Below, piece by piece: positions 3,318 to 16,673 of a stretch of 64,000 nucleotides of DNA. Origin of the DNA: Escherichia coli (GTDB lineage Bacteria > Pseudomonadota > Gammaproteobacteria > Enterobacterales > Enterobacteriaceae); assembly GCF_048403405.1 (NCBI RefSeq), contig NZ_CP183129.1. One strand, written 5' to 3'. The stretch's first letter is position 1. Each line of letters begins with the position of its first letter. The notes under the pieces are model-generated. The model was not told the origin of the DNA and searched no databases. It saw only the letters and a program-made list of their open reading frames with translations. Position numbers and translations under genes: made by a program.

Positions 3318-4990
3318 TCCTGCTACTTTGCAGCACTTCCGTTTTTGCCGGATTATTCGACGCGCCGGGACGTTCACAATTTGTCCCCGCGGATCAAGCC
3401 TTTGCTTTTGATTTTCAGCAAAACCAACATGACCTGAATCTGACCTGGCAGATCAAAGACGGTTACTACCTCTACCGTAAACAGATCCGCATTACGCCGG
3501 AACACGCGAAAATTGCCGACGTGCAGCTGCCGCAAGGCGTCTGGCATGAAGATGAGTTTTACGGCAAAAGCGAGATTTACCGCGATCGGCTGACGCTTCC
3601 CGTCACCATCAACCAGGCGAGTGCGGGAGCGACGTTAACTATCACCTACCAGGGCTGTGCTGATGCCGGTTTCTGTTATCCGCCAGAAACCAAAACCGTT
3701 CCGTTAAGCGAAGTGGTCGCCAACAACGCAGCGTCACAGCCTGTGTCTGTTCCGCAGCAAGAGCAGCCCACCGCGCAATTGCCCTTTTCCGCGCTCTGGG
3801 CGTTGTTGATCGGTATTGGTATCGCCTTTACGCCATGCGTGCTGCCAATGTACCCACTGATTTCTGGTATCGTGCTGGGCGGTAAACAGCGGCTCTCCAC
3901 TGCCAGAGCATTGTTGCTGACCTTTATTTATGTGCAGGGGATGGCGCTGACTTACACGGCACTGGGTCTGGTGGTTGCCGCCGCAGGGTTACAGTTCCAG
4001 GCGGCGCTACAGCACCCATACGTGCTCATTGGCCTCGCTATCGTCTTTACCTTGCTGGCGATGTCAATGTTTGGCTTGTTTACTCTGCAACTCCCCTCTT
4101 CGCTGCAAACACGTCTCACGCTGATGAGCAATCGCCAACAGGGCGGCTCACCTGGCGGTGTGTTTGTTATGGGGGCGATTGCCGGACTGATCTGTTCACC
4201 ATGCACCACCGCACCGCTTAGCGCGATTCTGCTGTATATCGCCCAAAGCGGGAACATGTGGCTGGGGGGCGGCACGCTTTATCTCTATGCGTTGGGCATG
4301 GGCCTGCCGCTGATGCTAATTACCGTCTTTGGTAACCGCTTGCTGCCGAAAAGCGGCCCGTGGATGGAACAAGTCAAAACCGCGTTTGGTTTTGTGATCC
4401 TCGCACTGCCGGTCTTCCTGCTGGAGCGAGTGATTGGTGATATATGGGGATTACGCTTGTGGTCGGCGCTTGGTGTCGCATTCTTTGGCTGGGCCTTTAT
4501 CACCAGCCTACAGGCCAAACGCGGCTGGATGCGCGTGGTGCAAATAATCCTGCTGGCAGCGGCATTGGTTAGCGTGCGCCCACTTCAGGATTGGGCATTT
4601 GGTGCGACGCATACCGCGCAAACTCAGACGCATCTCAACTTTACACAAATCAAAACGGTAGATGAGTTAAATCAGGCGCTCGTTGAAGCCAAAGGCAAAC
4701 CGGTGATGTTAGATCTCTATGCCGACTGGTGCGTCGCCTGTAAAGAGTTTGAGAAATACACCTTCAGCGACCCGCAGGTGCAAAAAGCGTTAGCAGACAC
4801 GGTATTACTTCAGGCCAACGTCACTGCCAACGACGCACAAGATGTGGCGCTGTTAAAGCATCTTAATGTCCTTGGCCTACCGACAATTCTCTTTTTTGAC
4901 GGACAAGGCCAGGAGCATCCACAAGCACGCGTCACGGGCTTTATGGATGCTGAAACCTTCAGCGCACATTTGCGCGATCGCCAACCGTGA
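3293..4990 (+). CDS. dsbD: thiol:disulfide interchange protein DsbD (DipZ), 565 aa
   Basis: ORF track starts at 3212; internal ATG at 3293 gives [19 protein letters not shown] signal peptide matching recalled DsbD; CxxC motifs (CVLPMYPL..., CSPC, WCVAC thioredoxin-like) visible in the translation. Confidence 0.93.
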
Positions 4991-5026: not shown

Positions 5027-5602
5027 GTGCAACGTGAAGATGTACTGGGAGAAGCCCTGAAATTATTAGAATTACAAGGGATTGCCAACACCACGCTGGA
5101 GATGGTTGCTGAACGTGTGGATTATCCACTGGACGAGCTGCGCCGCTTCTGGCCAGACAAAGAGGCAATCCTCTACGATGCGCTGCGTTATCTTAGCCAA
5201 CAGATAGATGTCTGGCGTCGTCAGCTGATGCTGGACGAAACGCAAACCGCCGAACAAAAGTTGCTGGCACGTTATCAGGCGTTATCGGAGTGCGTTAAAA
5301 ACAACCGCTATCCGGGCTGTCTGTTTATCGCTGCCTGTACGTTTTATCCCGATCCTGGCCACCCTATTCATCAACTGGCCGATCAGCAAAAAAGCGCGGC
5401 CTACGATTTCACCCACGAACTGTTAACCACACTGGAAGTTGACGATCCGGCGATGGTAGCAAAGCAGATGGAACTGGTGCTGGAAGGCTGTTTAAGCCGA
5501 ATGCTGGTGAATCGCAGCCAGGCGGATGTCGACACCGCACATCGGCTGGCGGAAGATATCCTGCGCTTCGCCCGCTGCCGCCAGGGTGGTGCTTTGACCT
5601 GA
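5027..5602 (+). CDS. yjdC: TetR-family transcriptional regulator YjdC, 191 aa
   Basis: GTG start at 5027 preceded by ggagg RBS; translation [31 protein letters not shown] has an N-terminal HTH typical of the TetR family; matches recalled YjdC. Confidence 0.85.
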
Positions 5603-5708
5603 CAGAAACACAGAAAAGAAGCGATTTGCCGCAATCTTAAGCAGTTGAATCGCTTTTACTGAAATTAGGTTGACGAGATGTGCAGATTACGGTTTAATGC
5701 GCCCCGTT

Positions 5709-5784
5709 GCCCGGATAGCTCAGTCGGTAGAGCAGGGGATTGAAAATCCCCGTGTCCTTGGTTCGATTCCGAGTCCGGGCACCA
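5709..5784 (+). tRNA. pheU: tRNA-Phe (anticodon GAA)
   Basis: 76-nt sequence GCCCGGATAGCTCAGTCGGTAGAGCAGGGGATTGAAAATCCCC...GGTTCGATTCCGAGTCCGGGCACCA with canonical D and T-psi-C arms, anticodon loop tGAAa and encoded CCA end. Confidence 0.97.
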
Positions 5785-5794
5785 AATTCATATA

Positions 5795-5826
5795 AACGGA
5801 CCTCCACGGAGGTCCGTTTTTCGTTT
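5795..5826 (+). terminator. rho-independent terminator downstream of pheU
   Basis: Perfect hairpin aaacggacctcc-acgg-aggtccgttt followed by ttttcgtttc. Confidence 0.7.
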
Positions 5827-6400
5827 CAGGACGCCACAATTTAAGCGTTCTGCCTAAAAATCATTTCTACCGAACTCAACCAAATTCTCCCCACAACACC
5901 AGCAATTTGCGGGCATATCCCAATTCGGGAAAATTTGTTCCTGAGCTATAGCACTGACTGACGTGAAATGTCGCGCGGCCCCGTGATGCTGTTGAACGTC
6001 AAATGACGTCATCAGGAGCGTAACGCATCCATAAAGCACAACCTCGGGCAGAACGCCGACTGATGAGATTTTCTGAATGAGAACAAAGAGAAATGTATCA
6101 GTCCGCTTGCTCATGCAAAGACTAACAATCCATAAAAATAGTAAGCGCGCCGGGCAATTTCCCATGGATTATTTTCTGAACATTTTTCTTTGGCAAAGAT
6201 GATGAATTTTGATGATAAGGAATATTACTTCTGGTTCTCAGTAAAATCCTTTCGTAATACTATGTAATCAAGAAGTTTATGGCTGGTAAAAATAACGTCT
6301 TGCATTCACCAATAATATGTAAATAAAACCATCTATAGATGGTAAAAATAGGTTGTGGCAATTATCATTGCATCATTCCCTTTTCTAATGAGTTTCTATT

Positions 6401-7939
6401 ATGCAACAACCTGTAGTTCGCGTTGGCGAATGGCTTGTTACTCCGTCCATAAACCAAATTAGCCGCAATGGGCGTCAACTTACCCTTGAGCCGAGATTAA
6501 TCGATCTTCTGGTTTTCTTTGCTCAACACAGTGGCGAAGTACTTAGCAGGGATGAACTTATCGATAATGTCTGGAAGAGAAGTATTGTCACCAATCACGT
6601 TGTGACGCAGAGTATCTCAGAACTACGTAAGTCATTAAAAGATAATGATGAAGATAGTCCTGTCTATATCGCTACTGTACCAAAGCGCGGCTATAAATTA
6701 ATGGTGCCGGTTATCTGGTACAGCGAAGAAGAGGGAGAGGAAATAATGCTATCTTCGCCTCCCCCTATACCAGAGGCGGTTCCTGCCACAGATTCTCCCT
6801 CCCACAGTCTTAACATTCAAAACACCGCAACGCTCCCTGAACAATCCCCAGTTAAAAGCAAACGATTCACTACCTTTTGGGTATGGTTTTTTTTCCTGTT
6901 GTCGTTAGGTATCTGTGTAGCACTGGTAGCGTTTTCAAGTCTTGATACACGTCTTCCGATGAGCAAATCGCGTATTTTGCTCAATCCACGCGATATTGAC
7001 ATTAATATGGTAAATAAAAGTTGTAACAGCTGGAGTTCCCCGTATCAGCTCTCTTACGCGATAGGCGTGGGTGATTTGGTGGCGACATCACTTAACACCT
7101 TCTCCACCTTTATGGTGCATGACAAAATCAACTACAACATTGATGAACCGAGCAGTTCCGGTAAAACATTATCTATTGCGTTTGTTAATCAGCGCCAATA
7201 CCGTGCTCAACAATGCTTTATGTCGGTAAAATTGGTAGACAATGCAGATGGTTCAACCATGCTGGATAAACGTTATGTCATCACTAACGGTAATCAACTG
7301 GCGATTCAAAATGATTTACTGGAGAGTTTATCAAAAGCGTTAAACCAACCGTGGCCACAACGAATGCAGGAGATGCTCCAGCAAATTTTGCCTCATCGTG
7401 GTGCGTTATTAACTAATTTTTATCAGGCACATGATTATTTACTGCATGGCGATGATAAATCATTGAACCGTGCCAGTGAATTATTGGGTGAGATTGTTCA
7501 ATCATCCCCAGAATTTACCTACGCGAGAGCAGAAAAAGCATTAGTTGATATCGTGCGCCATTCTCAACATCCTTTAGATGAAAAACAATTAGCAGCACTG
7601 AATACAGAAATAGATAACATTGTTACACTGCCGGAATTGAATAACCTGTCCATTATATATCAAATAAAAGCGGTCAGTGCTCTGGTAAAAGGTAAAACAG
7701 ATGAGTCTTACCAGGCGATAAATACTGGCATTGATCTTGAAATGTCCTGGCTAAATTATGTATTGCTTGGCAAGGTTTATGAAATGAAGGGGATGAACCG
7801 GGAAGCAGCTGATGCATATCTCACCGCCTTTAATTTACGCCCAGGGGCAAACACCCTTTACTGGATTGAAAATGGTATATTCCAAACTTCTGTTCCTTAT
7901 GTTGTACCTTATCTCGACAAATTTCTCGCTTCAGAATAA
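6401..7939 (+). CDS. cadC: ToxR-like membrane-bound transcriptional activator CadC, 512 aa
   Basis: Full ORF; N-terminal winged-helix OmpR-like DNA-binding domain, a single TM segment (FWVWFFFLLSLGICVALVAF) and a periplasmic sensor domain; matches recalled CadC. Confidence 0.95.
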   Translation: MQQPVVRVGEWLVTPSINQISRNGRQLTLEPRLIDLLVFFAQHSGEVLSRDELIDNVWKRSIVTNHVVTQSISELRKSLKDNDEDSPVYIATVPKRGYKLMVPVIWYSEEEGEEIMLSSPPPIPEAVPATDSPSHSLNIQNTATLPEQSPVKSKRFTTFWVWFFFLLSLGICVALVAFSSLDTRLPMSKSRILLNPRDIDINMVNKSCNSWSSPYQLSYAIGVGDLVATSLNTFSTFMVHDKINYNIDEPSSSGKTLSIAFVNQRQYRAQQCFMSVKLVDNADGSTMLDKRYVITNGNQLAIQNDLLESLSKALNQPWPQRMQEMLQQILPHRGALLTNFYQAHDYLLHGDDKSLNRASELLGEIVQSSPEFTYARAEKALVDIVRHSQHPLDEKQLAALNTEIDNIVTLPELNNLSIIYQIKAVSALVKGKTDESYQAINTGIDLEMSWLNYVLLGKVYEMKGMNREAADAYLTAFNLRPGANTLYWIENGIFQTSVPYVVPYLDKFLASE

Positions 7940-8304
7940 GTAACTCCCGGGTTGATTTATGCTCGGCAATATTTGTTGTTGAGTTTTTGTATGTTCCTGT
8001 TGGTATAATATGTTGCGGCAATTTATTTGCCGCATAATTTTTATTACATAAATTTAACCAGAAAATGTCCCGCAATCCATTGTAAACATTGAATGTTTAT
8101 CTTTTCATGATATCAACTTGCGATCCTGATGTGTTAATAAAAAACCTCAAGTTCTCACTTACAGAAACTTTTGTGTTATTTCACCTAATCTTTAGGATTA
8201 ATCCTTTTTTCGTGAGTATTCTTAGCGCCAGTTTGGTCTGGTCAGGAAATAGTTATACATCATGACCCGGACTCCAAATTCAAAAATGAAATTAGGAGAA
8301 GAGC
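7940..8304 (+). promoter_or_regulatory. AT-rich cadBA promoter/regulatory region (Pcad; expected CadC and H-NS binding)
   Basis: 365-bp AT-rich intergenic region between cadC and cadB; individual binding sites not delimited here. Confidence 0.4.
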
Positions 8305-9639
8305 ATGAGTTCTGCCAAGAAGATCGGGCTATTTGCCTGTACCGGTGTTGTTGCCGGTAATATGATGGGGAGCGGTATTGCATTATTACCTGCGAACCTA
8401 GCAAGTATCGGTGGTATTGCTATCTGGGGTTGGATTATCTCTATTATTGGTGCAATGTCGCTGGCGTATGTATATGCCCGACTGGCAACAAAAAACCCGC
8501 AACAAGGTGGCCCAATTGCTTATGCCGGAGAAATTTCCCCTGCATTTGGTTTTCAGACAGGTGTTCTTTATTACCATGCTAACTGGATTGGTAACCTGGC
8601 GATTGGTATTACCGCTGTATCTTATCTTTCCACCTTCTTCCCAGTATTAAATGATCCTGTTCCGGCGGGTATCGCCTGTATTGCTATCGTCTGGGTATTT
8701 ACCTTTGTAAATATGCTCGGCGGTACCTGGGTAAGCCGTTTAACCACTATTGGTCTGGTGCTGGTTCTTATTCCTGTGGTAATGACAGCTATTGTTGGCT
8801 GGCATTGGTTTGATGCTGCGACTTATGCTGCTAACTGGAATACTGCGGATACCACTGATGGTCATGCGATCATTAAAAGTATTCTGCTCTGCCTGTGGGC
8901 CTTCGTGGGTGTTGAATCCGCAGCAGTAAGTACTGGTATGGTTAAAAACCCGAAACGTACCGTTCCGCTGGCAACCATGCTGGGTACTGGTTTAGCAGGT
9001 ATTGTTTATATCGCTGCGACTCAGGTGCTTTCCGGTATGTATCCGTCTTCTGTAATGGCAGCTTCCGGTGCTCCGTTTGCAATCAGTGCTTCAACTATCC
9101 TCGGTAACTGGGCTGCGCCGCTGGTTTCTGCATTCACCGCCTTTGCGTGCCTGACCTCTCTGGGCTCCTGGATGATGTTGGTAGGCCAGGCAGGTGTACG
9201 TGCCGCTAACGACGGTAACTTCCCGAAAGTTTATGGTGAAGTCGACAGCAACGGTATTCCGAAAAAAGGTCTGCTGCTGGCTGCAGTGAAAATGACTGCC
9301 CTGATGATCCTCATCACTCTGATGAACTCTGCCGGTGGTAAAGCATCTGACCTGTTCGGTGAACTGACCGGTATCGCAGTACTGCTGACTATGCTGCCGT
9401 ACTTCTACTCTTGCGTTGACCTGATTCGTTTTGAAGGCGTTAACATCCGCAACTTTGTCAGCCTGATCTGCTCTGTACTGGGTTGCGTGTTCTGCTTCAT
9501 CGCGCTGATGGGCGCAAGCTCCTTCGAGCTGGCAGGTACCTTCATTGTCAGCCTGATTATCCTGATGTTCTACGCTCGCAAAATGCACGAGCGCCAGAGC
9601 CACTCAATGGATAACCACACAGCGTCTAACGCACATTAA
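8305..9639 (+). CDS. cadB: lysine:cadaverine antiporter CadB, 444 aa
   Basis: ORF with RBS aggaga; APC-family transporter; paralogous to the adiC product in this window; matches recalled CadB. Confidence 0.95.
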   Translation: MSSAKKIGLFACTGVVAGNMMGSGIALLPANLASIGGIAIWGWIISIIGAMSLAYVYARLATKNPQQGGPIAYAGEISPAFGFQTGVLYYHANWIGNLAIGITAVSYLSTFFPVLNDPVPAGIACIAIVWVFTFVNMLGGTWVSRLTTIGLVLVLIPVVMTAIVGWHWFDAATYAANWNTADTTDGHAIIKSILLCLWAFVGVESAAVSTGMVKNPKRTVPLATMLGTGLAGIVYIAATQVLSGMYPSSVMAASGAPFAISASTILGNWAAPLVSAFTAFACLTSLGSWMMLVGQAGVRAANDGNFPKVYGEVDSNGIPKKGLLLAAVKMTALMILITLMNSAGGKASDLFGELTGIAVLLTMLPYFYSCVDLIRFEGVNIRNFVSLICSVLGCVFCFIALMGASSFELAGTFIVSLIILMFYARKMHERQSHSMDNHTASNAH

Positions 9640-9718
9640 TTAAAAGTATTTTCCGAGGCTCCTCCTTTCATTTTGTCCCATGTGTTGGGAGGGGCCTTTT
9701 TTACCTGGAGATATGACT

Positions 9719-11866
9719 ATGAACGTTATTGCAATATTGAATCACATGGGGGTTTATTTTAAAGAAGAACCCATCCGTGAACTTCATCGCGCGCTTGAAC
9801 GTCTGAACTTCCAGATTGTTTACCCGAACGACCGTGACGACTTATTAAAACTGATCGAAAACAATGCGCGTCTGTGCGGCGTTATTTTTGACTGGGATAA
9901 ATATAATCTCGAGCTGTGCGAAGAAATTAGCAAAATGAACGAGAACCTGCCGTTGTACGCGTTCGCTAATACGTATTCCACTCTCGATGTAAGCCTGAAT
10001 GACCTGCGTTTACAGATTAGCTTCTTTGAATATGCGCTGGGTGCTGCTGAAGATATTGCTAACAAGATCAAGCAGACCACTGACGAATATATCAACACTA
10101 TTCTGCCTCCGCTGACCAAAGCATTGTTTAAATATGTTCGTGAAGGTAAATATACTTTCTGTACTCCTGGTCACATGGGCGGTACTGCATTCCAGAAAAG
10201 CCCGGTAGGTAGCCTGTTCTATGATTTCTTTGGTCCGAACACCATGAAATCTGATATTTCCATTTCAGTATCTGAACTGGGTTCTCTGCTGGATCACAGT
10301 GGTCCACACAAAGAAGCAGAACAGTATATCGCTCGCGTCTTTAACGCAGACCGCAGCTACATGGTGACCAACGGTACTTCCACTGCGAACAAAATTGTTG
10401 GTATGTACTCTGCTCCGGCAGGCAGCACCATTCTGATTGACCGTAACTGCCACAAATCGCTGACCCACCTGATGATGATGAGCGATGTTACGCCAATCTA
10501 TTTCCGCCCGACCCGTAACGCTTACGGTATTCTTGGTGGTATCCCACAGAGTGAATTCCAGCACGCTACCATTGCTAAGCGCGTGAAAGAAACACCAAAC
10601 GCAACCTGGCCGGTACATGCTGTAATTACCAACTCTACCTATGATGGTCTGCTGTACAACACCGACTTCATCAAGAAAACACTGGATGTGAAATCCATCC
10701 ACTTTGACTCCGCGTGGGTGCCTTACACCAACTTCTCACCGATTTACGAAGGTAAATGCGGTATGAGCGGTGGCCGTGTAGAAGGGAAAGTGATTTACGA
10801 AACCCAGTCTACTCACAAACTGCTGGCGGCGTTCTCTCAGGCTTCCATGATCCACGTTAAAGGTGACGTAAACGAAGAAACCTTTAACGAAGCCTACATG
10901 ATGCACACCACCACCTCTCCGCACTACGGTATCGTGGCGTCCACTGAAACCGCTGCGGCGATGATGAAAGGCAATGCAGGTAAGCGTCTGATCAACGGTT
11001 CCATTGAACGTGCGATCAAATTCCGTAAAGAGATCAAACGTCTGAGAACGGAATCTGATGGCTGGTTCTTTGATGTATGGCAGCCGGATCATATCGATAC
11101 CACTGAATGCTGGCCGCTGCGTTCTGACAGCACCTGGCACGGCTTCAAAAACATCGATAACGAGCACATGTATCTTGACCCGATCAAAGTCACCCTGCTG
11201 ACTCCGGGGATGGAAAAAGACGGCACCATGAGCGACTTTGGTATTCCGGCCAGCATCGTGGCGAAATACCTCGACGAACATGGCATCGTTGTTGAGAAAA
11301 CCGGTCCGTATAACCTGCTGTTCCTGTTCAGCATCGGTATCGATAAGACCAAAGCACTGAGCCTGCTGCGTGCTCTGACTGACTTCAAACGTGCGTTCGA
11401 CCTGAACCTGCGTGTGAAAAACATGCTGCCGTCTCTGTATCGTGAAGATCCTGAATTCTATGAAAACATGCGTATTCAGGAACTGGCTCAGAATATCCAT
11501 AAACTGATTGTTCACCACAATCTGCCGGATCTGATGTATCGCGCATTTGAAGTGCTGCCGACAATGGTAATGACTCCGTATGCTGCGTTCCAGAAAGAGC
11601 TGCACGGTATGACCGAAGAAGTTTACCTCGACGAAATGGTAGGTCGTATTAACGCCAATATGATCCTTCCGTATCCGCCGGGAGTTCCTCTGGTAATGCC
11701 GGGTGAAATGATCACCGAAGAAAGCCGTCCGGTTCTGGAGTTCCTGCAGATGCTGTGTGAAATCGGCGCTCACTATCCGGGCTTTGAAACCGATATTCAC
11801 GGTGCATACCGTCAGGCTGATGGCCGCTATACCGTTAAGGTATTGAAAGAAGAAAGCAAAAAATAA
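9719..11866 (+). CDS. cadA: inducible lysine decarboxylase CadA, 715 aa
   Basis: ORF track starts at 9680; ATG at 9719 gives MNVIAILNHMGVYFKEEP matching recalled CadA; PLP-lysine motif region STHKLL present; paralog of the adiA product. Confidence 0.95.
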   Translation: MNVIAILNHMGVYFKEEPIRELHRALERLNFQIVYPNDRDDLLKLIENNARLCGVIFDWDKYNLELCEEISKMNENLPLYAFANTYSTLDVSLNDLRLQISFFEYALGAAEDIANKIKQTTDEYINTILPPLTKALFKYVREGKYTFCTPGHMGGTAFQKSPVGSLFYDFFGPNTMKSDISISVSELGSLLDHSGPHKEAEQYIARVFNADRSYMVTNGTSTANKIVGMYSAPAGSTILIDRNCHKSLTHLMMMSDVTPIYFRPTRNAYGILGGIPQSEFQHATIAKRVKETPNATWPVHAVITNSTYDGLLYNTDFIKKTLDVKSIHFDSAWVPYTNFSPIYEGKCGMSGGRVEGKVIYETQSTHKLLAAFSQASMIHVKGDVNEETFNEAYMMHTTTSPHYGIVASTETAAAMMKGNAGKRLINGSIERAIKFRKEIKRLRTESDGWFFDVWQPDHIDTTECWPLRSDSTWHGFKNIDNEHMYLDPIKVTLLTPGMEKDGTMSDFGIPASIVAKYLDEHGIVVEKTGPYNLLFLFSIGIDKTKALSLLRALTDFKRAFDLNLRVKNMLPSLYREDPEFYENMRIQELAQNIHKLIVHHNLPDLMYRAFEVLPTMVMTPYAAFQKELHGMTEEVYLDEMVGRINANMILPYPPGVPLVMPGEMITEESRPVLEFLQMLCEIGAHYPGFETDIHGAYRQADGRYTVKVLKEESKK

Positions 11867-11877
11867 TTAGCTCGTAC

Positions 11878-11906
11878 AAGGGAAGTGGCTTGCCACTTCC
11901 CTTTTT
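11878..11906 (+). terminator. rho-independent terminator downstream of cadA
   Basis: Hairpin gggaagtgg-cttg-ccacttccc followed by ttttttg. Confidence 0.7.
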
Positions 11907-11924
11907 TGCTCATAAGGAGAACAC

Positions 11925-13382
11925 ATGAAAACACCCTCACAGCCGCGCGCGATATACTATATCGTGGCGATCCAAATCTGGGAGTACTTCAGTTTTTACG
12001 GCATGCGTGCCTTACTCATTCTCTATCTCACCCATCAGCTTGGTTTTGATGATAACCATGCCATCAGCCTGTTCAGCGCATATGCTTCTCTGGTTTACGT
12101 TACCCCTATTCTCGGCGGCTGGCTTGCCGACCGCCTGCTCGGCAACCGCACTGCAGTGATTGCCGGCGCGCTGTTAATGACCCTTGGCCATGTAGTGCTG
12201 GGCATTGATACAAATTCAACCTTTAGCCTGTATCTGGCGCTGGCAATCATTATTTGTGGCTACGGTTTATTCAAATCAAACATCAGCTGTTTGCTTGGCG
12301 AGCTCTACGACGAGAACGATCATCGACGTGATGGCGGTTTTTCGCTGCTGTATGCTGCAGGCAATATCGGTTCTATCGCCGCCCCCATCGCCTGCGGCCT
12401 GGCTGCTCAGTGGTATGGATGGCATGTTGGCTTTGCCCTTGCGGGTGGCGGCATGTTTATCGGTTTGTTGATTTTCTTAAGCGGTCATCGTCATTTCCAG
12501 TCCACGCGTAGTATGGATAAGAAAGCGCTCACTAGCGTCAAATTTGCCTTACCAGTATGGAGCTGGTTAGTGGTGATGCTCTGTTTAGCCCCAGTATTTT
12601 TTACCCTGCTGCTGGAGAACGACTGGTCCGGATATTTGCTGGCGATCGTTTGCCTCATTGCAGCACAAATCATTGCCCGCATGATGATCAAATTCCCCGA
12701 ACACCGCCGTGCTCTTTGGCAAATTGTATTGTTGATGTTTGTCGGGACGTTGTTCTGGGTACTGGCACAACAGGGCGGCAGTACCATCAGCTTGTTTATC
12801 GATCGCTTTGTGAATCGTCAGGCATTCAATATTGAAGTACCTACAGCACTATTCCAGTCGGTGAATGCCATTGCGGTGATGCTCGCTGGGGTTGTTCTGG
12901 CCTGGCTGGCGTCGCCAGAAAGCCGCGGCAATTCAGCATTGCGCGTCTGGCTGAAGTTTGCCTTTGGCTTACTGCTGATGGCTTGTGGCTTTATGTTGCT
13001 GGCATTTGATGCCCGACATGCAGCGGCTGGCGGTCAAGCGTCAATGGGCGTGATGGTATCCGGGCTGGCGCTAATGGGCTTTGCTGAACTCTTTATTGAC
13101 CCGGTGGCGATTGCGCAAATCACGCGTCTGAAAATGTCTGGCGTATTAACCGGTATTTATATGCTGGCAACAGGCGCGGTCGCCAACTGGCTGGCAGGCG
13201 TCGTGGCACAGCAGACGACAGAGTCGCAAATTAGCGGTATGGCAATTGCCGCTTACCAGCGATTCTTTTCTCAGATGGGAGAGTGGACGTTGGCTTGTGT
13301 CGCGATCATCGTGGTATTGGCCTTTGCTACCCGTTTTCTGTTTAGCACGCCGACGAATATGATACAGGAGAGCAACGATTAA
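11925..13382 (+). CDS. dtpC: proton-dependent di/tripeptide transporter DtpC (YjdL), 485 aa
   Basis: ORF with RBS aaggag; POT/PTR2-family MFS transporter; matches recalled DtpC. Confidence 0.93.
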
Positions 13383-13618
13383 CTGTCGTAAAAACAATTG
13401 GTTATGAATAAATTAACTTTCAGTTTATCACACTAGCAAATCGAGATTAATAAGTCATTTAAACCATTTTTATGGTTATTTATTAGTGATATCAACTTGA
13501 GGTAAGCGTTAGTTTCGATAAGATAAACTGAGTTATTAATAGTCGAGGCAGATAATACAGTGTACCGATCTGTCTCTTTATCTACGCTAAATTGAAAGCT
13601 GGATTTAGAGGAACCAAA

Positions 13619-15136
13619 ATGTCTGAACGAGAAACACGGGGAGCCAATGAGGCTATTGATTTTAACGATGAACTGAGAAATCGCCGCGAAAAACTGGCGG
13701 CACTACGTCAGCAAGGTGTGGCGTTTCCCAATGATTTTCGCCGCGACCATACCTCTGACCAGTTGCACGAAGAGTTTGATGCGAAGGATAACCAGGAACT
13801 GGAATCCTTAAACATTGAAGTCTCGGTTGCTGGCCGAATGATGACCCGTCGTATCATGGGGAAAGCCTCCTTTGTAACGTTGCAGGATGTCGGTGGCCGT
13901 ATTCAACTGTACGTTGCAAGAGATAGCCTGCCAGAAGGTGTTTATAACGATCAGTTTAAAAAATGGGATCTGGGTGACATTATCGGTGCCCGCGGTACGC
14001 TGTTTAAGACGCAAACGGGTGAGCTTTCCATTCACTGTACTGAGCTGCGCCTGCTGACTAAAGCACTACGTCCTTTACCAGATAAATTCCATGGTCTGCA
14101 GGATCAGGAAGTCCGTTATCGTCAACGTTATCTGGACCTCATCGCTAACGATAAATCCCGTCAAACGTTTGTTGTCCGTTCAAAAATTCTGGCCGCTATC
14201 CGTCAGTTCATGGTCGCGCGCGGCTTTATGGAAGTAGAAACCCCGATGATGCAGGTAATTCCAGGTGGGGCATCTGCTCGCCCGTTTATTACCCATCATA
14301 ACGCTCTGGATTTAGATATGTACCTGCGTATCGCGCCAGAGCTGTATCTGAAACGTCTGGTTGTAGGCGGTTTTGAACGGGTATTCGAAATCAACCGTAA
14401 CTTCCGTAATGAAGGTATTTCTGTTCGCCATAATCCTGAGTTCACAATGATGGAACTCTACATGGCGTATGCGGATTACCACGATTTGATTGAACTGACA
14501 GAGTCACTGTTCCGCACCCTGGCACAAGAGGTTCTGGGTACCACTAAAGTCACTTATGGCGAGCATGTGTTTGATTTCGGCAAACCGTTTGAAAAACTCA
14601 CCATGCGCGAAGCAATCAAAAAATATCGTCCAGAAACCGATATGGCCGACCTGGATAATTTTGATGCCGCTAAAGCATTAGCTGAATCTATTGGTATTAC
14701 GGTAGAGAAAAGCTGGGGGCTGGGACGTATTGTCACGGAGATCTTTGATGAAGTGGCAGAAGCACATCTGATTCAGCCAACCTTTATTACGGAATATCCC
14801 GCAGAAGTGTCACCGCTGGCGCGCCGTAATGATGTTAACCCGGAAATCACCGACCGATTTGAATTCTTCATCGGTGGTCGTGAAATCGGTAATGGTTTTA
14901 GCGAATTAAACGACGCAGAAGATCAGGCTGAACGTTTCCAGGAACAGGTTAACGCTAAAGCTGCAGGTGACGACGAAGCCATGTTCTATGACGAAGATTA
15001 CGTGACTGCGCTGGAATATGGTTTGCCACCAACCGCTGGTCTGGGTATTGGTATCGACCGAATGATTATGCTGTTTACAAACAGTCATACTATTCGCGAC
15101 GTTATTCTCTTCCCGGCGATGCGCCCACAGAAATAA
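13619..15136 (+). CDS. lysU: lysyl-tRNA synthetase, heat-inducible isoform LysU, 505 aa
   Basis: ORF track starts at 13592; ATG at 13619 gives the [25 protein letters not shown]-terminus of class II LysRS; position next to dtpC/cadA identifies it as lysU rather than lysS. Confidence 0.93.
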
Positions 15137-15148
15137 TTTTCACTTTAA

Positions 15149-15182
15149 TGAACGAAGCAGTCAGGCGACTGCTTCGTTCATC
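15149..15182. terminator. hairpin between convergent lysU and ghoT (possible bidirectional terminator)
   Basis: 12-bp perfect inverted repeat tgaacgaagcag/ctgcttcgttca; no strong T-tract on either side. Confidence 0.4.
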
Positions 15183-15254
15183 ATTCCGCAAATCCAGTTT
15201 TGAGGAGAGACGCTTCGTTTCACGATAACCAGCGGGTCCACTCAACTACAGCTC

Positions 15255-15428
15255 CTAAAAGAGAGAAAAAAGTAATGCCACAGGCAGACTCATTGGCCAG
15301 GTTATTCCGACCAGGAATGCACTAAGTAAACGAATATGTGTTTTCTCATGTGAGATAAACCAGATAATGACAAAGGATATGTTCACACCAATCACATAAA
15401 AAATTAATATTTTAGAGAATAGTGCCAT
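15255..15428 (-). CDS. ghoT: type V toxin GhoT, small membrane-lytic peptide, 57 aa
   Basis: Not in the supplied ORF track (below size cutoff); minus-strand translation read by hand gives MALFSKILIFYVIGVNISFVIIWFISHEKTHIRLLSAFLVGITWPMSLPVALLFSLF, matching recalled GhoT; immediately downstream of ghoS. Confidence 0.85.
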   Translation of the reverse strand: MALFSKILIFYVIGVNISFVIIWFISHEKTHIRLLSAFLVGITWPMSLPVALLFSLF

Positions 15429-15455
15429 TTTTTATGTTCTTCTTATCCTTCCTGG

Positions 15456-15752
15456 CTACTTGTAAAACTGACGGAAATAGTCATCAACGGTCATAATGTT
15501 GAGGTCAAAATCAATATCCGGTAAGTCTAAGCATTTAAGCCTGATTAAATCTTCGATTTCACTTGCGGCTAACGATGTCGTTATTGCGAAGGAGTTTTCA
15601 TTCAATTGTCGTGGTATCCCATATTCATCAGCCACGATAGAGGAGAAATTCATATCATACATCAATGATCTTAACCTTAAGAACACTGAGGAATAAGATG
15701 ATGGATAATCAAAAGAAACAACATAAGTATTGAACTTGTTTTTACCTTCCAT
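15456..15752 (-). CDS. ghoS: type V antitoxin GhoS (endoribonuclease cleaving ghoT mRNA), 98 aa
   Basis: ORF MEGKNKFNTYVVSFDYPSSYSSVFLRLRSLMYDMNFSS... matches recalled GhoS (YjdK). Confidence 0.9.
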   Translation of the reverse strand: MEGKNKFNTYVVSFDYPSSYSSVFLRLRSLMYDMNFSSIVADEYGIPRQLNENSFAITTSLAASEIEDLIRLKCLDLPDIDFDLNIMTVDDYFRQFYK

Positions 15753-15978
15753 AATATGACTCCTATCAATATTGAACGCTCTGGGGACGCAAAACTTATT
15801 AACCCCGATTGATGATTCTCATATAGGAGATATTCTTTTTTTTGCTCAGTAAAGGGGATGACTTGGGACAAAAAAACGCGCTCTCTGCCCATTCTTTGTG
15901 CATCCCCCTACCCTTCAGATGCTCACCTGCATCACACCGCGGAGAGCATGAAAAATATTGTGACTCTGTACTCTCCCA

Positions 15979-16251
15979 TCAACTGCGAATATCATCATAC
16001 TCCCGCGTTTTATCAAATTCGTGTTTCGCAAATGGGCATAGTGGGATAATTTTTCGTTTTTCCCGACGCATTTTTTCCACGACTTTCGCAACCAGCTGTT
16101 TACCAATCCCCTGCCCTTTCAGGCTTTCATCGACATCGGTATGTTCGATAATCGCTAAATTCTCTCCGGTCGGCACAAAGACAATTTCAGCGATTTGCTT
16201 GCCCTGTTCGTCATTAATGTAAAATTTATTGTGGCCTTCGCGTATTTCCAT
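15979..16251 (-). CDS. yjdJ: GNAT-family N-acetyltransferase YjdJ, 90 aa
   Basis: ORF with acetyl-CoA-binding-like motif ([18 protein letters not shown]); matches recalled YjdJ. Confidence 0.85.
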
Positions 16252-16262
16252 TTTACCCTCGC

Positions 16263-16493
16263 TTATTTATGACGGTATTTCAGCGCGCCGCTCGGGCACG
16301 TATCAATCACTTTAACCACAGTGGCAACGTCGACTTCATCCGGCATGATCCACGGCTTTCGTTTGAGATTAAATAACTTGCCGTTGCCACGTACGCAATT
16401 GCCAGAATGCTGACATATCGCAGTATTGAAATAGACATCGATCTTTTCGCCGGTATAACAGCGATAACCCCCGTCCAGTAGCGCCCGATCCAT
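16263..16493 (-). CDS. yjdI: small cysteine-rich protein YjdI (DUF1271, putative Fe-S/ferredoxin-like), 76 aa
   Basis: [41 protein letters not shown]...CPSGALKY with spaced cysteines; matches recalled YjdI. Confidence 0.85.
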
Positions 16494-16673
16494 GACCTTC
16501 CCTCTCTCATCAGTATGATTATCGCTATAAGCATAGCCCCGGAATCTTCATTCAGCACTGGCAGTTTCCGTTGCCAGAATCTCTTCCCCTATATAGCCAA
16601 TCATTCTTACTCCCTTTGAATTACCCGCCTCATCAGAGATAATGCTTAAGAAATTTGTCACACAAGGAAGCTG

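What the first reader, a model, noticed from the sequence alone, without database searches (positions are those of the whole stretch)
5709..6400. pheU tRNA integration hotspot is unoccupied
tRNA-Phe genes are classic insertion sites for genomic and pathogenicity islands. Here the tRNA is followed by its terminator and about 600 bp of AT-rich cadC upstream DNA. There is no integrase gene and I did not find a second copy of the tRNA 3' end anywhere in the window.
Basis: partly seen in the sequence, partly recalled or inferred. Interest (0 to 1): 0.25.

Follow-up and report, generated by a model that had tools for sequence, protein, structure and literature searches.

The report
pheU site: empty but scarred
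The tRNA-Phe gene pheU in this E. coli window carries no present-day genomic island, but the DNA just after it is the decayed stump of an ancient island's integrase gene, already annotated in K-12 as the pseudogene yjdQ, so the finding is ordinary.

Summary
The window is E. coli strain 4621 (100% match), gene order as in K-12. pheU (5709-5784), its terminator (5794-5819) and the 616-bp gap to cadC are real. The 64-kb window holds no intact integrase and no second copy of the tRNA 3' end.

The gap is not simply AT-rich cadC upstream DNA. Bases 5785-6258 are collinear with the tRNA-proximal end of present-day P4-type pheU islands. They comprise the leader, the first five integrase codons (ATG mutated to ATA), a deletion of about 1 kb, the last ~65 codons (frameshifted, catalytic Tyr codon lost) and the integrase 3' flank. 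MG1655 annotates this as pseudogene yjdQ (b4654).

The same deletion junction occurs in K-12 and four other Escherichia lineages. The remnant is present in 5206 of 5426 complete E. coli genomes and diverges at a neutral rate.

In about 32% of genomes the pheU-cadC stretch is interrupted; in the two examined, an island lies between pheU and a copy of its 3' end, with the old remnant beyond it.

Verdict: no modern occupant, but not a virgin site. Already known, low interest. One speculative reading remains: the low-GC cadCBA-to-yjdI block may be the ancient island's surviving cargo.

The parts
5670..5698 (+). Putative pheU promoter: TTGACG at 5670-5675, a 17-nt spacer, TTTAAT at 5693-5698
   Evidence: Read from the sequence. 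The same ttgacg...ggtttaatgcgccccgtt block precedes pheU in Citrobacter, Salmonella, Kosakonia and Superficieibacter. The consensus scan did not call it. Function is inferred.
5709..5784 (+). pheU, tRNA-Phe(GAA), full length
   Evidence: ARAGORN. Rfam tRNA, 68.3 bits. RefSeq annotation. Identical in four other genera.
5762..5784 (+). 23-nt attachment core (TTCGATTCCGAGTCCGGGCACCA), single copy in the window
   Evidence: Many interrupted genomes resume homology exactly here: query position 763 corresponds to window 5762. The APEC E19025 attR is the same 23-mer minus one G. The literature reports 22-23-bp repeats (PMC6174562, PMC11537424). It occurs once in the window.
5794..5819 (+). Intrinsic terminator hairpin of pheU, followed by a T-run; probably island-derived
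   Evidence: It is identical to the hairpin on the integrase-proximal arm of the APEC pheU island. It differs from the terminator that four other genera share.
5785..5947 (+). Remnant of the island's tRNA-to-integrase leader
   Evidence: Window 5651-5917, which includes the pheU promoter and pheU itself, matches 250 of 267 nt (94%) against L005 33150-33416. Identity is 100% up to 5829, and all 17 mismatches fall in 5830-5917 (about 81% there). The remainder aligns with two deletions.
5948..5963 (+). Integrase 5' stub: ATA GCA CTG ACT GAC G, codons 1-5 (MALTD) with the start codon ATG mutated to ATA
   Evidence: The blastn hit 5941-5963 matches 21 of 23 nt, is collinear with the integrase start and has E = 1e-4. 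ATG is retained in three other Escherichia lineages.
5964..5976 (+). Junction of the roughly 1-kb internal deletion of the integrase gene (about codons 9 to 346-355 lost)
   Evidence: Pairwise alignments. The same junction is present in K-12, the APEC distal copy and four other Escherichia lineages.
5977..6141 (+). Integrase 3' fragment, codons ~356-420 (RDAVERQM...NP*K*). It has a 1-nt insertion, a 16-nt deletion that removes GVRAAY including the catalytic Tyr, a 14-nt deletion, and a strain-specific TTA-to-TAA change at 6133-6135. The stop codon TAG is at 6139-6141. Corresponds to yjdQ (b4654).
   Evidence: blastn gives 71% over 315 nt, E = 1e-42. tblastn gives E = 2e-6. Alignment. PGAP annotates a 'tyrosine-type recombinase/integrase' pseudogene in K-12 GM4792 at window 5982-6141. 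MG1655 yjdQ maps to window 5982-6144.
6142..6258 (+). Homologue of the integrase 3' flank, including a degenerate copy of the integrase terminator palindrome
   Evidence: The blastn and pairwise alignments continue to about 6256-6258. Divergence from K-12 is 4.3%.
6259..6400 (+). AT-rich cadC-proximal upstream region, presumed to hold the cadC promoter; contains the palindrome ACCATCTATAGATGGT at 6328-6343
   Evidence: GC is 30-35%. It diverges only 1.4% from K-12, against 3.7-4.6% for the remnant. The last ~75 bp are conserved even in E. albertii. The promoter role is inferred.
6401..7939 (+). cadC, the first intact gene after the scar
   Evidence: RefSeq annotation. GC 41.8%, GC3 38.6%.

Best explanation
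The pheU attachment site here has no present-day occupant but carries a fixed scar.

In an ancestor of E. coli and the cryptic Escherichia clades, a P4-type island integrated by site-specific recombination into the 3' end of tRNA-Phe. This step is inferred from the anatomy and from how this integrase family is known to work. Integration rebuilt the tRNA 3' end. It also placed the island's own terminator, leader and integrase gene immediately downstream.

The integrase then lost about 1 kb internally and decayed further by small deletions and point mutations. This is shown by alignment. The stump (K-12 yjdQ) has since been inherited vertically as neutral DNA.

The 23-nt core within pheU stays intact. 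Related islands can therefore still integrate there, and when they do they push the old core copy and the stump to their far end. This arrangement is shown in occupied strains.

The window's strain has no such island.
For: The window is 100% identical to strain 4621 and has K-12 gene order with no integrase gene.

Window 5785-6258 is collinear with pheU, leader, integrase and 3' flank of the 65.6-kb APEC E19025 island. The 267-nt blastn hit covering the pheU promoter, pheU and the first 133 nt downstream is 94% identical. A 16-nt start-codon stub follows, and the C-terminal codons plus flank are 71% identical with E = 1e-42.

The intact comparator has the Arm-DNA-bind_3, Phage_int_M and Phage_integrase architecture.

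The remnant is annotated as an integrase pseudogene or yjdQ in K-12.

The same junction occurs in K-12 and four other Escherichia lineages. The remnant is present at 80% coverage or more in 5206 of 5426 genomes.

Its divergence from K-12 is 3.7-4.6%, comparable to third-codon-position divergence in the flanking genes, which is 1.9-3.5%.

In the occupied strains examined, the island sits between pheU and a 22/23-nt or ~50-nt copy of the tRNA end, with the stump beyond it. Published repeats are 22-23 bp.

Four other genera share a different pheU terminator, and their sequence departs from Escherichia exactly at the base after the tRNA.
Against: No attR or right end of the ancient island was found, so the original integration event is inferred and not reconstructed.

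The claim that the E. coli pheU terminator is island-derived is weakened by Citrobacter sp. R56. There a small insert is flanked on both sides by the genus-typical terminator, which shows that elements can carry host-like terminators.

That the 23-nt core in this strain is competent for integration was not tested.

The occupancy figure of about 32% is a proxy. It is the fraction of genomes with less than 80% contiguous coverage of a 2-kb query, and it also counts deletions.
Confidence: 0.9

Rival explanations
1. One reading: a naive, never-used integration hotspot, in which pheU is followed only by its own terminator and native AT-rich cadC regulatory DNA.
For: There is no intact integrase and no attR in the 64 kb. 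The locus is contiguous as in K-12. PGAP annotated nothing between pheU and cadC in this strain.
Against: Bases 5785-6258 are collinear with island DNA and include both ends of an integrase gene. K-12 annotates the stretch as a pseudogene. Only 6100-6400 is AT-rich. Four other genera have a different sequence starting from the first base after the tRNA.
Confidence: 0.03
2. The site is still occupied by a domesticated ancient island. On this reading the stump is the left end of an element whose cargo survives as the block from yjdQ to yjdI (window 5785-16673): cadC, cadB, cadA, dtpC, lysU, ghoT/ghoS, yjdJ and yjdI. The lysine-decarboxylase acid-resistance system would then have reached its Escherichia position through pheU integration.
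For: cadC begins 260 bp after the integrase stop, right after the integrase 3' flank, in the position of the first cargo gene.

The block has 45.5% GC, against 51.7% on the left and 53.0% on the right. cadC GC3 is 38.6% and ghoST is 35% GC.

The left anchor (aspA-dcuA-cutA-dsbD-yjdC-pheU) is conserved in Citrobacter, Salmonella, Kosakonia and Superficieibacter. The right anchor (dcuS-dcuR-dcuB-fumB...) is conserved in Salmonella and Citrobacter. The genes next to each anchor differ in every genus, and none of the block's genes appear there.

In Klebsiella, Raoultella, Yokenella and Kluyvera, cadCBA(-dtpC) lies in a different context without pheU or yjdC.
Against: No attR and no displaced native terminator were found between lysU and dcuS or anywhere else in the window.

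I could not show that pheU and dcuS are neighbouring anchors on one contig in another genus.

Low GC in cadC and ghoST has other possible explanations. CadA and CadB are 90-94% identical to those of other genera, which is compatible with vertical descent.

The block could have been assembled by several events, or an island could have been deleted right up to a pre-existing cadC.
Confidence: 0.3
3. The stump has been exapted: 5785-6258 would serve as the cadC promoter or 5' UTR, or encode a small RNA or a small protein such as the 103-codon minus-strand ORF at 5854-6165.
For: It is retained in 96% of genomes. It sits upstream of a tightly regulated gene. An ORF exists on the minus strand.
Against: It diverges from K-12 at the neutral rate (3.7-4.6%), while the 142 bp nearest cadC diverge only 1.4%. 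Different lineages carry different extra deletions and stop codons. Rfam finds no family besides the tRNA. The ORF has no Pfam match. No plus-strand promoter-like site was found.
Confidence: 0.05

Closest known systems
yjdQ (b4654), a pseudogene between pheU and cadC in E. coli K-12 MG1655. From my own memory it is described as a P4-like integrase remnant; the record seen here gives only 'pseudogene'.
   Same: It has the same position, strand and deletion junction. MG1655 4362191-4362353 maps to window 5982-6144.
   Different: This strain's copy has about 4-5% substitutions relative to K-12 and an extra TTA-to-TAA stop at 6133-6135. That may be why PGAP left it unannotated here.
P4-type integrase islands at pheU and pheV of E. 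coli, such as GI-pheV, the LEE and PAI islands and the 65.6-kb pheU island of APEC E19025. They are bounded by 22-23-bp repeats of the tRNA-Phe 3' end.
   Same: The attachment core, the terminator and leader after the tRNA, and the integrase position and orientation are the same. Both integrase ends are recognisably homologous.
   Different: Here about 1 kb of the integrase is missing, the catalytic Tyr codon is gone, no attR exists and no strain-variable cargo is attached. The stump is fixed in the species rather than variable.
Cryptic P4-like prophage remnants of K-12 (CP4-6 at thrW, CP4-44, CP4-57 at ssrA). This comparison is from my own knowledge.
   Same: These are also decayed tRNA- or tmRNA-integrated elements with P4-family integrases that are inherited as chromosome fixtures.
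   Different: They keep many genes and mostly intact integrases and repeats. Here only about 470 bp of recognisable element DNA remains.
The small insert at pheU of Citrobacter sp. R56 (L027)
   Same: It is an insertion at the tRNA-Phe 3' end in a related genus.
   Different: It has a clear second copy of 45 nt of the tRNA plus the terminator 3.6 kb downstream.

Membership tests
P4-type tyrosine integrase gene (Arm-DNA-bind_3 + Phage_int_M + Phage_integrase) | N-terminal arm-type DNA-binding domain (PF13356) | tested here: not met
   Only codons 1-5 remain, at 5948-5963. The intact comparator has the domain at residues 3-88.
P4-type tyrosine integrase gene (Arm-DNA-bind_3 + Phage_int_M + Phage_integrase) | Catalytic domain PF00589 with its active-site residues, including the nucleophilic Tyr | tested here: not met
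   The region up to about codon 355 is deleted. A 16-nt deletion removes GVRAAY, which holds the Tyr. The conceptual peptide hits no Pfam family.
P4-type tyrosine integrase gene (Arm-DNA-bind_3 + Phage_int_M + Phage_integrase) | Collinear sequence homology to a bona fide member | tested here: met
   blastn gives 71% over 315 nt with E = 1e-42, plus a start-codon stub matching 21 of 23 nt. tblastn gives E = 2e-6.
P4-type tyrosine integrase gene (Arm-DNA-bind_3 + Phage_int_M + Phage_integrase) | Located immediately 3' of the target tRNA, in the same orientation | tested here: met
   The stub starts 164 nt after pheU on the + strand. In the APEC island the integrase starts 198 nt after pheU.
tRNA-integrated genomic island currently occupying the site | Direct repeat of the tRNA 3' end (attR) at the distal boundary | tested here: not met
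   The 23-mer occurs once at up to 3 mismatches. 14-mer near-matches are at chance level.
tRNA-integrated genomic island currently occupying the site | Functional or near-intact integrase next to the tRNA | tested here: not met
   Only the stump is present. No integrase is annotated in the 64 kb.
tRNA-integrated genomic island currently occupying the site | Presence varies between strains | tested here: not met
   The remnant is present in 5206 of 5426 genomes. The pheU-cadC stretch is contiguous in 3677 of 5426, as it is here.
tRNA-integrated genomic island currently occupying the site | Adjacent DNA has atypical composition | tested here: inconclusive
   Bases 5785-16673 have 45.5% GC against 51.7% and 53.0% in the flanks, but the genes are core and fixed in the species.
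Unoccupied pheU attB as in island-free E. coli such as K-12 | Full-length tRNA with an intact 23-nt core, and a flank collinear with K-12 through cadC | tested here: met
   Identity to K-12 is 98.5% over the 2 kb.
Unoccupied pheU attB as in island-free E. coli such as K-12 | No mobile-element-derived DNA between the tRNA and the next core gene (a truly naive site) | tested here: not met
   The integrase stump and island leader occupy 5785-6258.
Unoccupied pheU attB as in island-free E. coli such as K-12 | Able to receive an island (recombination competence) | not testable with these tools
   This is inferred only from the core being identical to that used in occupied strains.

The most novel reading that the evidence does not exclude
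The roughly 10.9-kb low-GC block after pheU may be the surviving, domesticated cargo of the ancient P4-type island whose integrase stump is yjdQ. The block runs yjdQ, cadC, cadB, cadA, dtpC, lysU, ghoT/ghoS, yjdJ, yjdI (window 5785-16673). If so, the Escherichia lysine-decarboxylase acid-resistance locus, later lost in Shigella and enteroinvasive E. coli, reached its present position by tRNA-directed integration. I found no paper in the held library that says this, which does not prove it is unpublished.
Probability: 0.3. Interest if true: 0.4.

Novelty: already known. Interest (0 to 1): 0.12.

Why it matters
It matters little in itself. It is a correct negative call (no modern island) that needs one correction: the site carries a fixed integrase stump that K-12 already annotates as yjdQ.

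- **Island callers.** 'No integrase and no attR' does not mean a naive site. In occupied strains the old stump lies just outside attR, where it can be mistaken for part of the new island or used to misplace its boundary.
- **Annotation consistency.** A single strain-specific stop codon probably caused PGAP to drop the pseudogene in this genome.
- **Speculative cargo reading.** If it held, a textbook core acid-resistance operon would be reclassified as an anciently domesticated island.

Tried and rejected
- **Rfam.** An E-value scan of 5400-6600 found only the tRNA. The two other hits were far below their gathering scores.
- **Minus-strand ORF 5854-6165 (103 aa).** It has no Pfam family and overlaps the neutrally decaying stump, so I treat it as spurious.
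- **Pfam on the stitched 52-aa stump peptide.** No family matched. The peptide is too short and lies beyond the catalytic domain.
- **Search for an ancient attR.** 23-mer and 14-mer searches at up to 3 mismatches gave only the tRNA itself and chance-level hits.
- **Search for the terminator shared by other genera.** The pattern search gave 0 hits in the window. A short-word blastn returned only noise.
- **Narrow junction query (5620-5960) to count occupied genomes.** This was confounded, because incoming islands carry a near-identical terminator and leader. I used the 2-kb query instead.
- **Joining Salmonella and C. sedlakii contigs.** I tried to link the Salmonella pheU contig to the C. sedlakii dcuS contig through their fimbrial usher genes. 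No DNA similarity was found, so pheU-dcuS contiguity outside Escherichia is not shown.
- **Literature.** 'yjdQ' returned 0 papers. Searches on cadC with pheU and on horizontal origin of the cad operon found nothing on the stump or the cargo idea. A search on the cadC promoter was unproductive.
- **Salmonella and E. fergusonii cadC.** The degenerate cadC start pattern did not retrieve them, so their cad context was not examined.

Full report
**Identity of the window**

A 2-kb query around the finding is 100% identical to the chromosome of E. coli strain 4621 (NZ_CP103479.1, a human blood isolate). It is 98.5% identical to K-12. Window base 1 corresponds to record position 4671448.

RefSeq annotation of the whole 64 kb gives K-12 gene order: aspA, dcuA, cutA, dsbD, dicD(yjdC), tRNA-Phe, cadC, cadB, cadA, dtpC, lysU, ghoTS, yjdJI, dcuSR, dcuB, fumB, mel, adi, eptA-basRS, proP, phn, mdtNOP, fdhF. 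It lists no integrase or transposase.

**Checking the observation**

- ARAGORN finds one tRNA in the window, tRNA-Phe(GAA) at 5709-5784 on the + strand. Rfam agrees at 68.3 bits. MG1655 names the orthologous gene pheU.
- An 11-pair hairpin with a T-run lies at 5794-5819.
- cadC starts at 6401, so the spacer is 616 bp.
- The last 23 nt of the tRNA occur only once at up to 3 mismatches. The last 14 nt give 4 near-matches against 5.0 expected by chance.

These parts of the observation hold. The description 'AT-rich cadC upstream DNA' does not. GC is about 48-51% from 5700 to 6100 and drops to 30-35% only from 6100 to 6400.

**What the spacer really is**

PGAP annotates a frameshifted, N-terminally truncated 'tyrosine-type recombinase/integrase' pseudogene in K-12 GM4792, at the position equal to window 5982-6141. 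It does the same in most rows listed. MG1655 carries the pseudogene yjdQ (b4654) at window 5982-6144. PGAP left it out in strain 4621.

I tested the homology directly against an occupied strain, APEC E19025. There pheU is followed by a 420-aa integrase (L005 33481-34743). That protein has the Arm-DNA-bind_3, Phage_int_M and Phage_integrase domains. Alignments show the following.

| Window | Content | Match to the APEC island |
|---|---|---|
| 5651-5917 | pheU promoter, pheU, terminator and first part of the leader | 250 of 267 nt (94%) over the whole hit; 100% up to 5829, all 17 mismatches in 5830-5917 (about 81% there) |
| 5918-5947 | Rest of the leader | Aligns with two deletions |
| 5948-5963 | ATA GCA CTG ACT GAC G, integrase codons 1-5 | Start codon mutated from ATG to ATA |
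| 5964-5976 | Deletion junction | About 1 kb of the gene is missing |
| 5977-6141 | Integrase codons ~356-420 | 71% identity with the flank below, E = 1e-42 |
| 6142-~6258 | Integrase 3' flank | Includes a degenerate copy of its terminator palindrome |

The 3' fragment carries a 1-nt insertion and a 16-nt deletion that removes GVRAAY, including the catalytic tyrosine. It also carries a 14-nt deletion and, in this strain only, a TTA-to-TAA change at 6133-6135.

So 5785-6258 is the decayed left end of a P4-type island. Only 6259-6400 is cadC-proximal DNA.

**Age and evolutionary mode**

The same deletion junction is present in K-12 and in the distal copy of APEC E19025. It is also present in Escherichia sp. 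E1V33, E. whittamii, Escherichia sp. MOD1-EC7003 and the divergent 'E. coli' SCPM-O-B-8794. Each of these carries its own additional small deletions. The large deletion therefore predates the split of E. coli from these lineages.

In E. albertii, homology begins only about 75 bp before cadC. Upstream of that point lie Toprim and DUF927 helicase ORFs of another element.

The remnant (5830-6260) is present at 80% coverage or more in 5206 of 5426 complete E. coli genomes.

Between this strain and K-12, divergence by segment is as follows.

| Segment | Divergence from K-12 |
|---|---|
| Remnant segments (leader, integrase fragments, 3' flank) | 3.7-4.6% |
| Third codon positions of dsbD, yjdC and cadC | 1.9-3.5% |
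| 142 bp next to cadC | 1.4% |
| pheU and the yjdC-pheU spacer upstream of it | 0% |

This is the pattern expected for an inert pseudogene lying next to a constrained promoter region.

**How the site is used in other strains**

The pheU-cadC stretch is contiguous in 3677 of 5426 genomes. In many of the others, homology to the window resumes at 5762, the start of the 23-nt core.

In APEC E19025 a 65.6-kb island lies between pheU and a 22-nt attR. The island carries an integrase, tet(B), ireA and a CP4-like yee module. The old terminator, leader and stump lie beyond attR.

A second class of occupant duplicates about 50 nt of the tRNA. In strain MARGA_3 it carries phsABC, IS26 and a type I restriction gene.

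The published repeats for pheU and pheV islands are 22-23 bp with the same sequence (PMC6174562, PMC11537424).

The mechanism is ordinary tRNA-directed site-specific integration. Each incoming element rebuilds the tRNA 3' end from its own attP arm and displaces the previous one.

**Comparison with other genera**

In Citrobacter, Salmonella, Kosakonia and Superficieibacter, the backbone is conserved. It runs groESL, yjeH, fxsA, aspA, dcuA, cutA, dsbD, yjdC, pheU, and the pheU promoter and tRNA are identical. Citrobacter sp. R56 has one extra DUF1176 gene between yjdC and pheU.

From the first base after the tRNA, these genera share a different terminator (aacccgcc...ggcgggtttttgctttt). After that, each genus has different genes.

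The Escherichia terminator is instead the one carried by present-day islands. From this I infer that even pheU's terminator in E. coli is island-derived. One caveat applies: a small insert in Citrobacter sp. R56 is flanked by the host-type terminator on both sides.

**The speculative extension**

- cadC starts 260 bp after the integrase stop.
- The block 5785-16673 (cadC to yjdI) has 45.5% GC, against 51.7% and 53.0% on either side.
- dcuS, dcuR, dcuB and fumB form a conserved right-hand anchor in Salmonella and Citrobacter, with genus-specific genes upstream of it and none of the block's genes there.
- In Klebsiella, Raoultella, Yokenella and Kluyvera, cadCBA(-dtpC) lies elsewhere, next to a catB-like acetyltransferase and without pheU.

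This fits the block being the ancient island's cargo. However, I found neither an attR nor the displaced native terminator. I also could not show pheU-dcuS contiguity in another genus. I rate this reading at about 0.3.

**Verdict**

The feature is the already-annotated yjdQ integrase remnant, fixed and neutrally decaying in Escherichia. Novelty: already known. Interest: low.

Noticed in passing
L016 5975-7990; L018 3263-5278; L027 10643-11689; window 5603-5708: A DUF1176 gene lies between yjdC and pheU in Escherichia sp. E1V33 and E. whittamii (671 aa) and in Citrobacter sp. R56 (348 aa). In E. coli the spacer is only about 106 bp, which suggests the gene was lost in the E. coli lineage.
   Followed up: partly
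L027 11805-11880 and ~15457-15541: Citrobacter sp. R56 has a second, 45-nt copy of the tRNA-Phe 3' part (one G missing) with the same terminator, 3.6 kb after pheU. This is a small occupied site and serves as a positive control for the attR signature that is absent from the window.
   Followed up: partly
L006 58-2293 and up to the cadC ATG at 4264: In E. albertii, Toprim and DUF927 helicase ORFs of a mobile element lie upstream of cadC. Homology with E. coli begins only about 75 bp before the cadC start codon, so the yjdQ stump has been replaced or deleted there.
   Followed up: partly
L031 ~6965-7060 (corresponds to window 5735-5784): A second class of pheU occupant in E. coli (strain MARGA_3) duplicates about 50 nt of the tRNA rather than 22-23 nt. 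It carries phsABC, IS26 and a truncated type I restriction gene, which implies a different integrase type.
   Followed up: partly
window 5785-16673: The block from the stump to yjdI (cadCBA, dtpC, lysU, ghoTS, yjdJI) has 45.5% GC against 51.7% and 53.0% in the flanks. cadC GC3 is 38.6% and ghoT/ghoS are about 35% GC. Four of its genes concern lysine.
   Followed up: partly
window 6328-6343: The perfect palindrome ACCATCTATAGATGGT lies 58-73 bp upstream of the cadC start, in the only part of the spacer conserved as far as E. albertii. It may be a regulator site or promoter element. The scan flagged it only as a minus-strand terminator-like hairpin.
   Followed up: no
window 6133-6135: A strain-specific TTA-to-TAA change sits near the end of the integrase stump; K-12 and the APEC strain have TTA. 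It probably explains why PGAP annotated no pseudogene in strain 4621 although it did in most other genomes.
   Followed up: no
window 5854-6165, minus strand: A 103-codon ATG ORF lies antisense to the integrase stump. It has no Pfam family and sits in neutrally diverging DNA, so it is most likely spurious.
   Followed up: partly
L007 (NZ_JAATUR010000038.1), 6370-7008: The record titled 'E. coli strain SCPM-O-B-8794' has a pheU-cadC spacer only 75% identical to the window. It retains leader and junction bases that E. coli has lost, while its DsbD is 96% identical, a distance like that of the cryptic clades. It is probably not E. coli in the strict sense.
   Followed up: no
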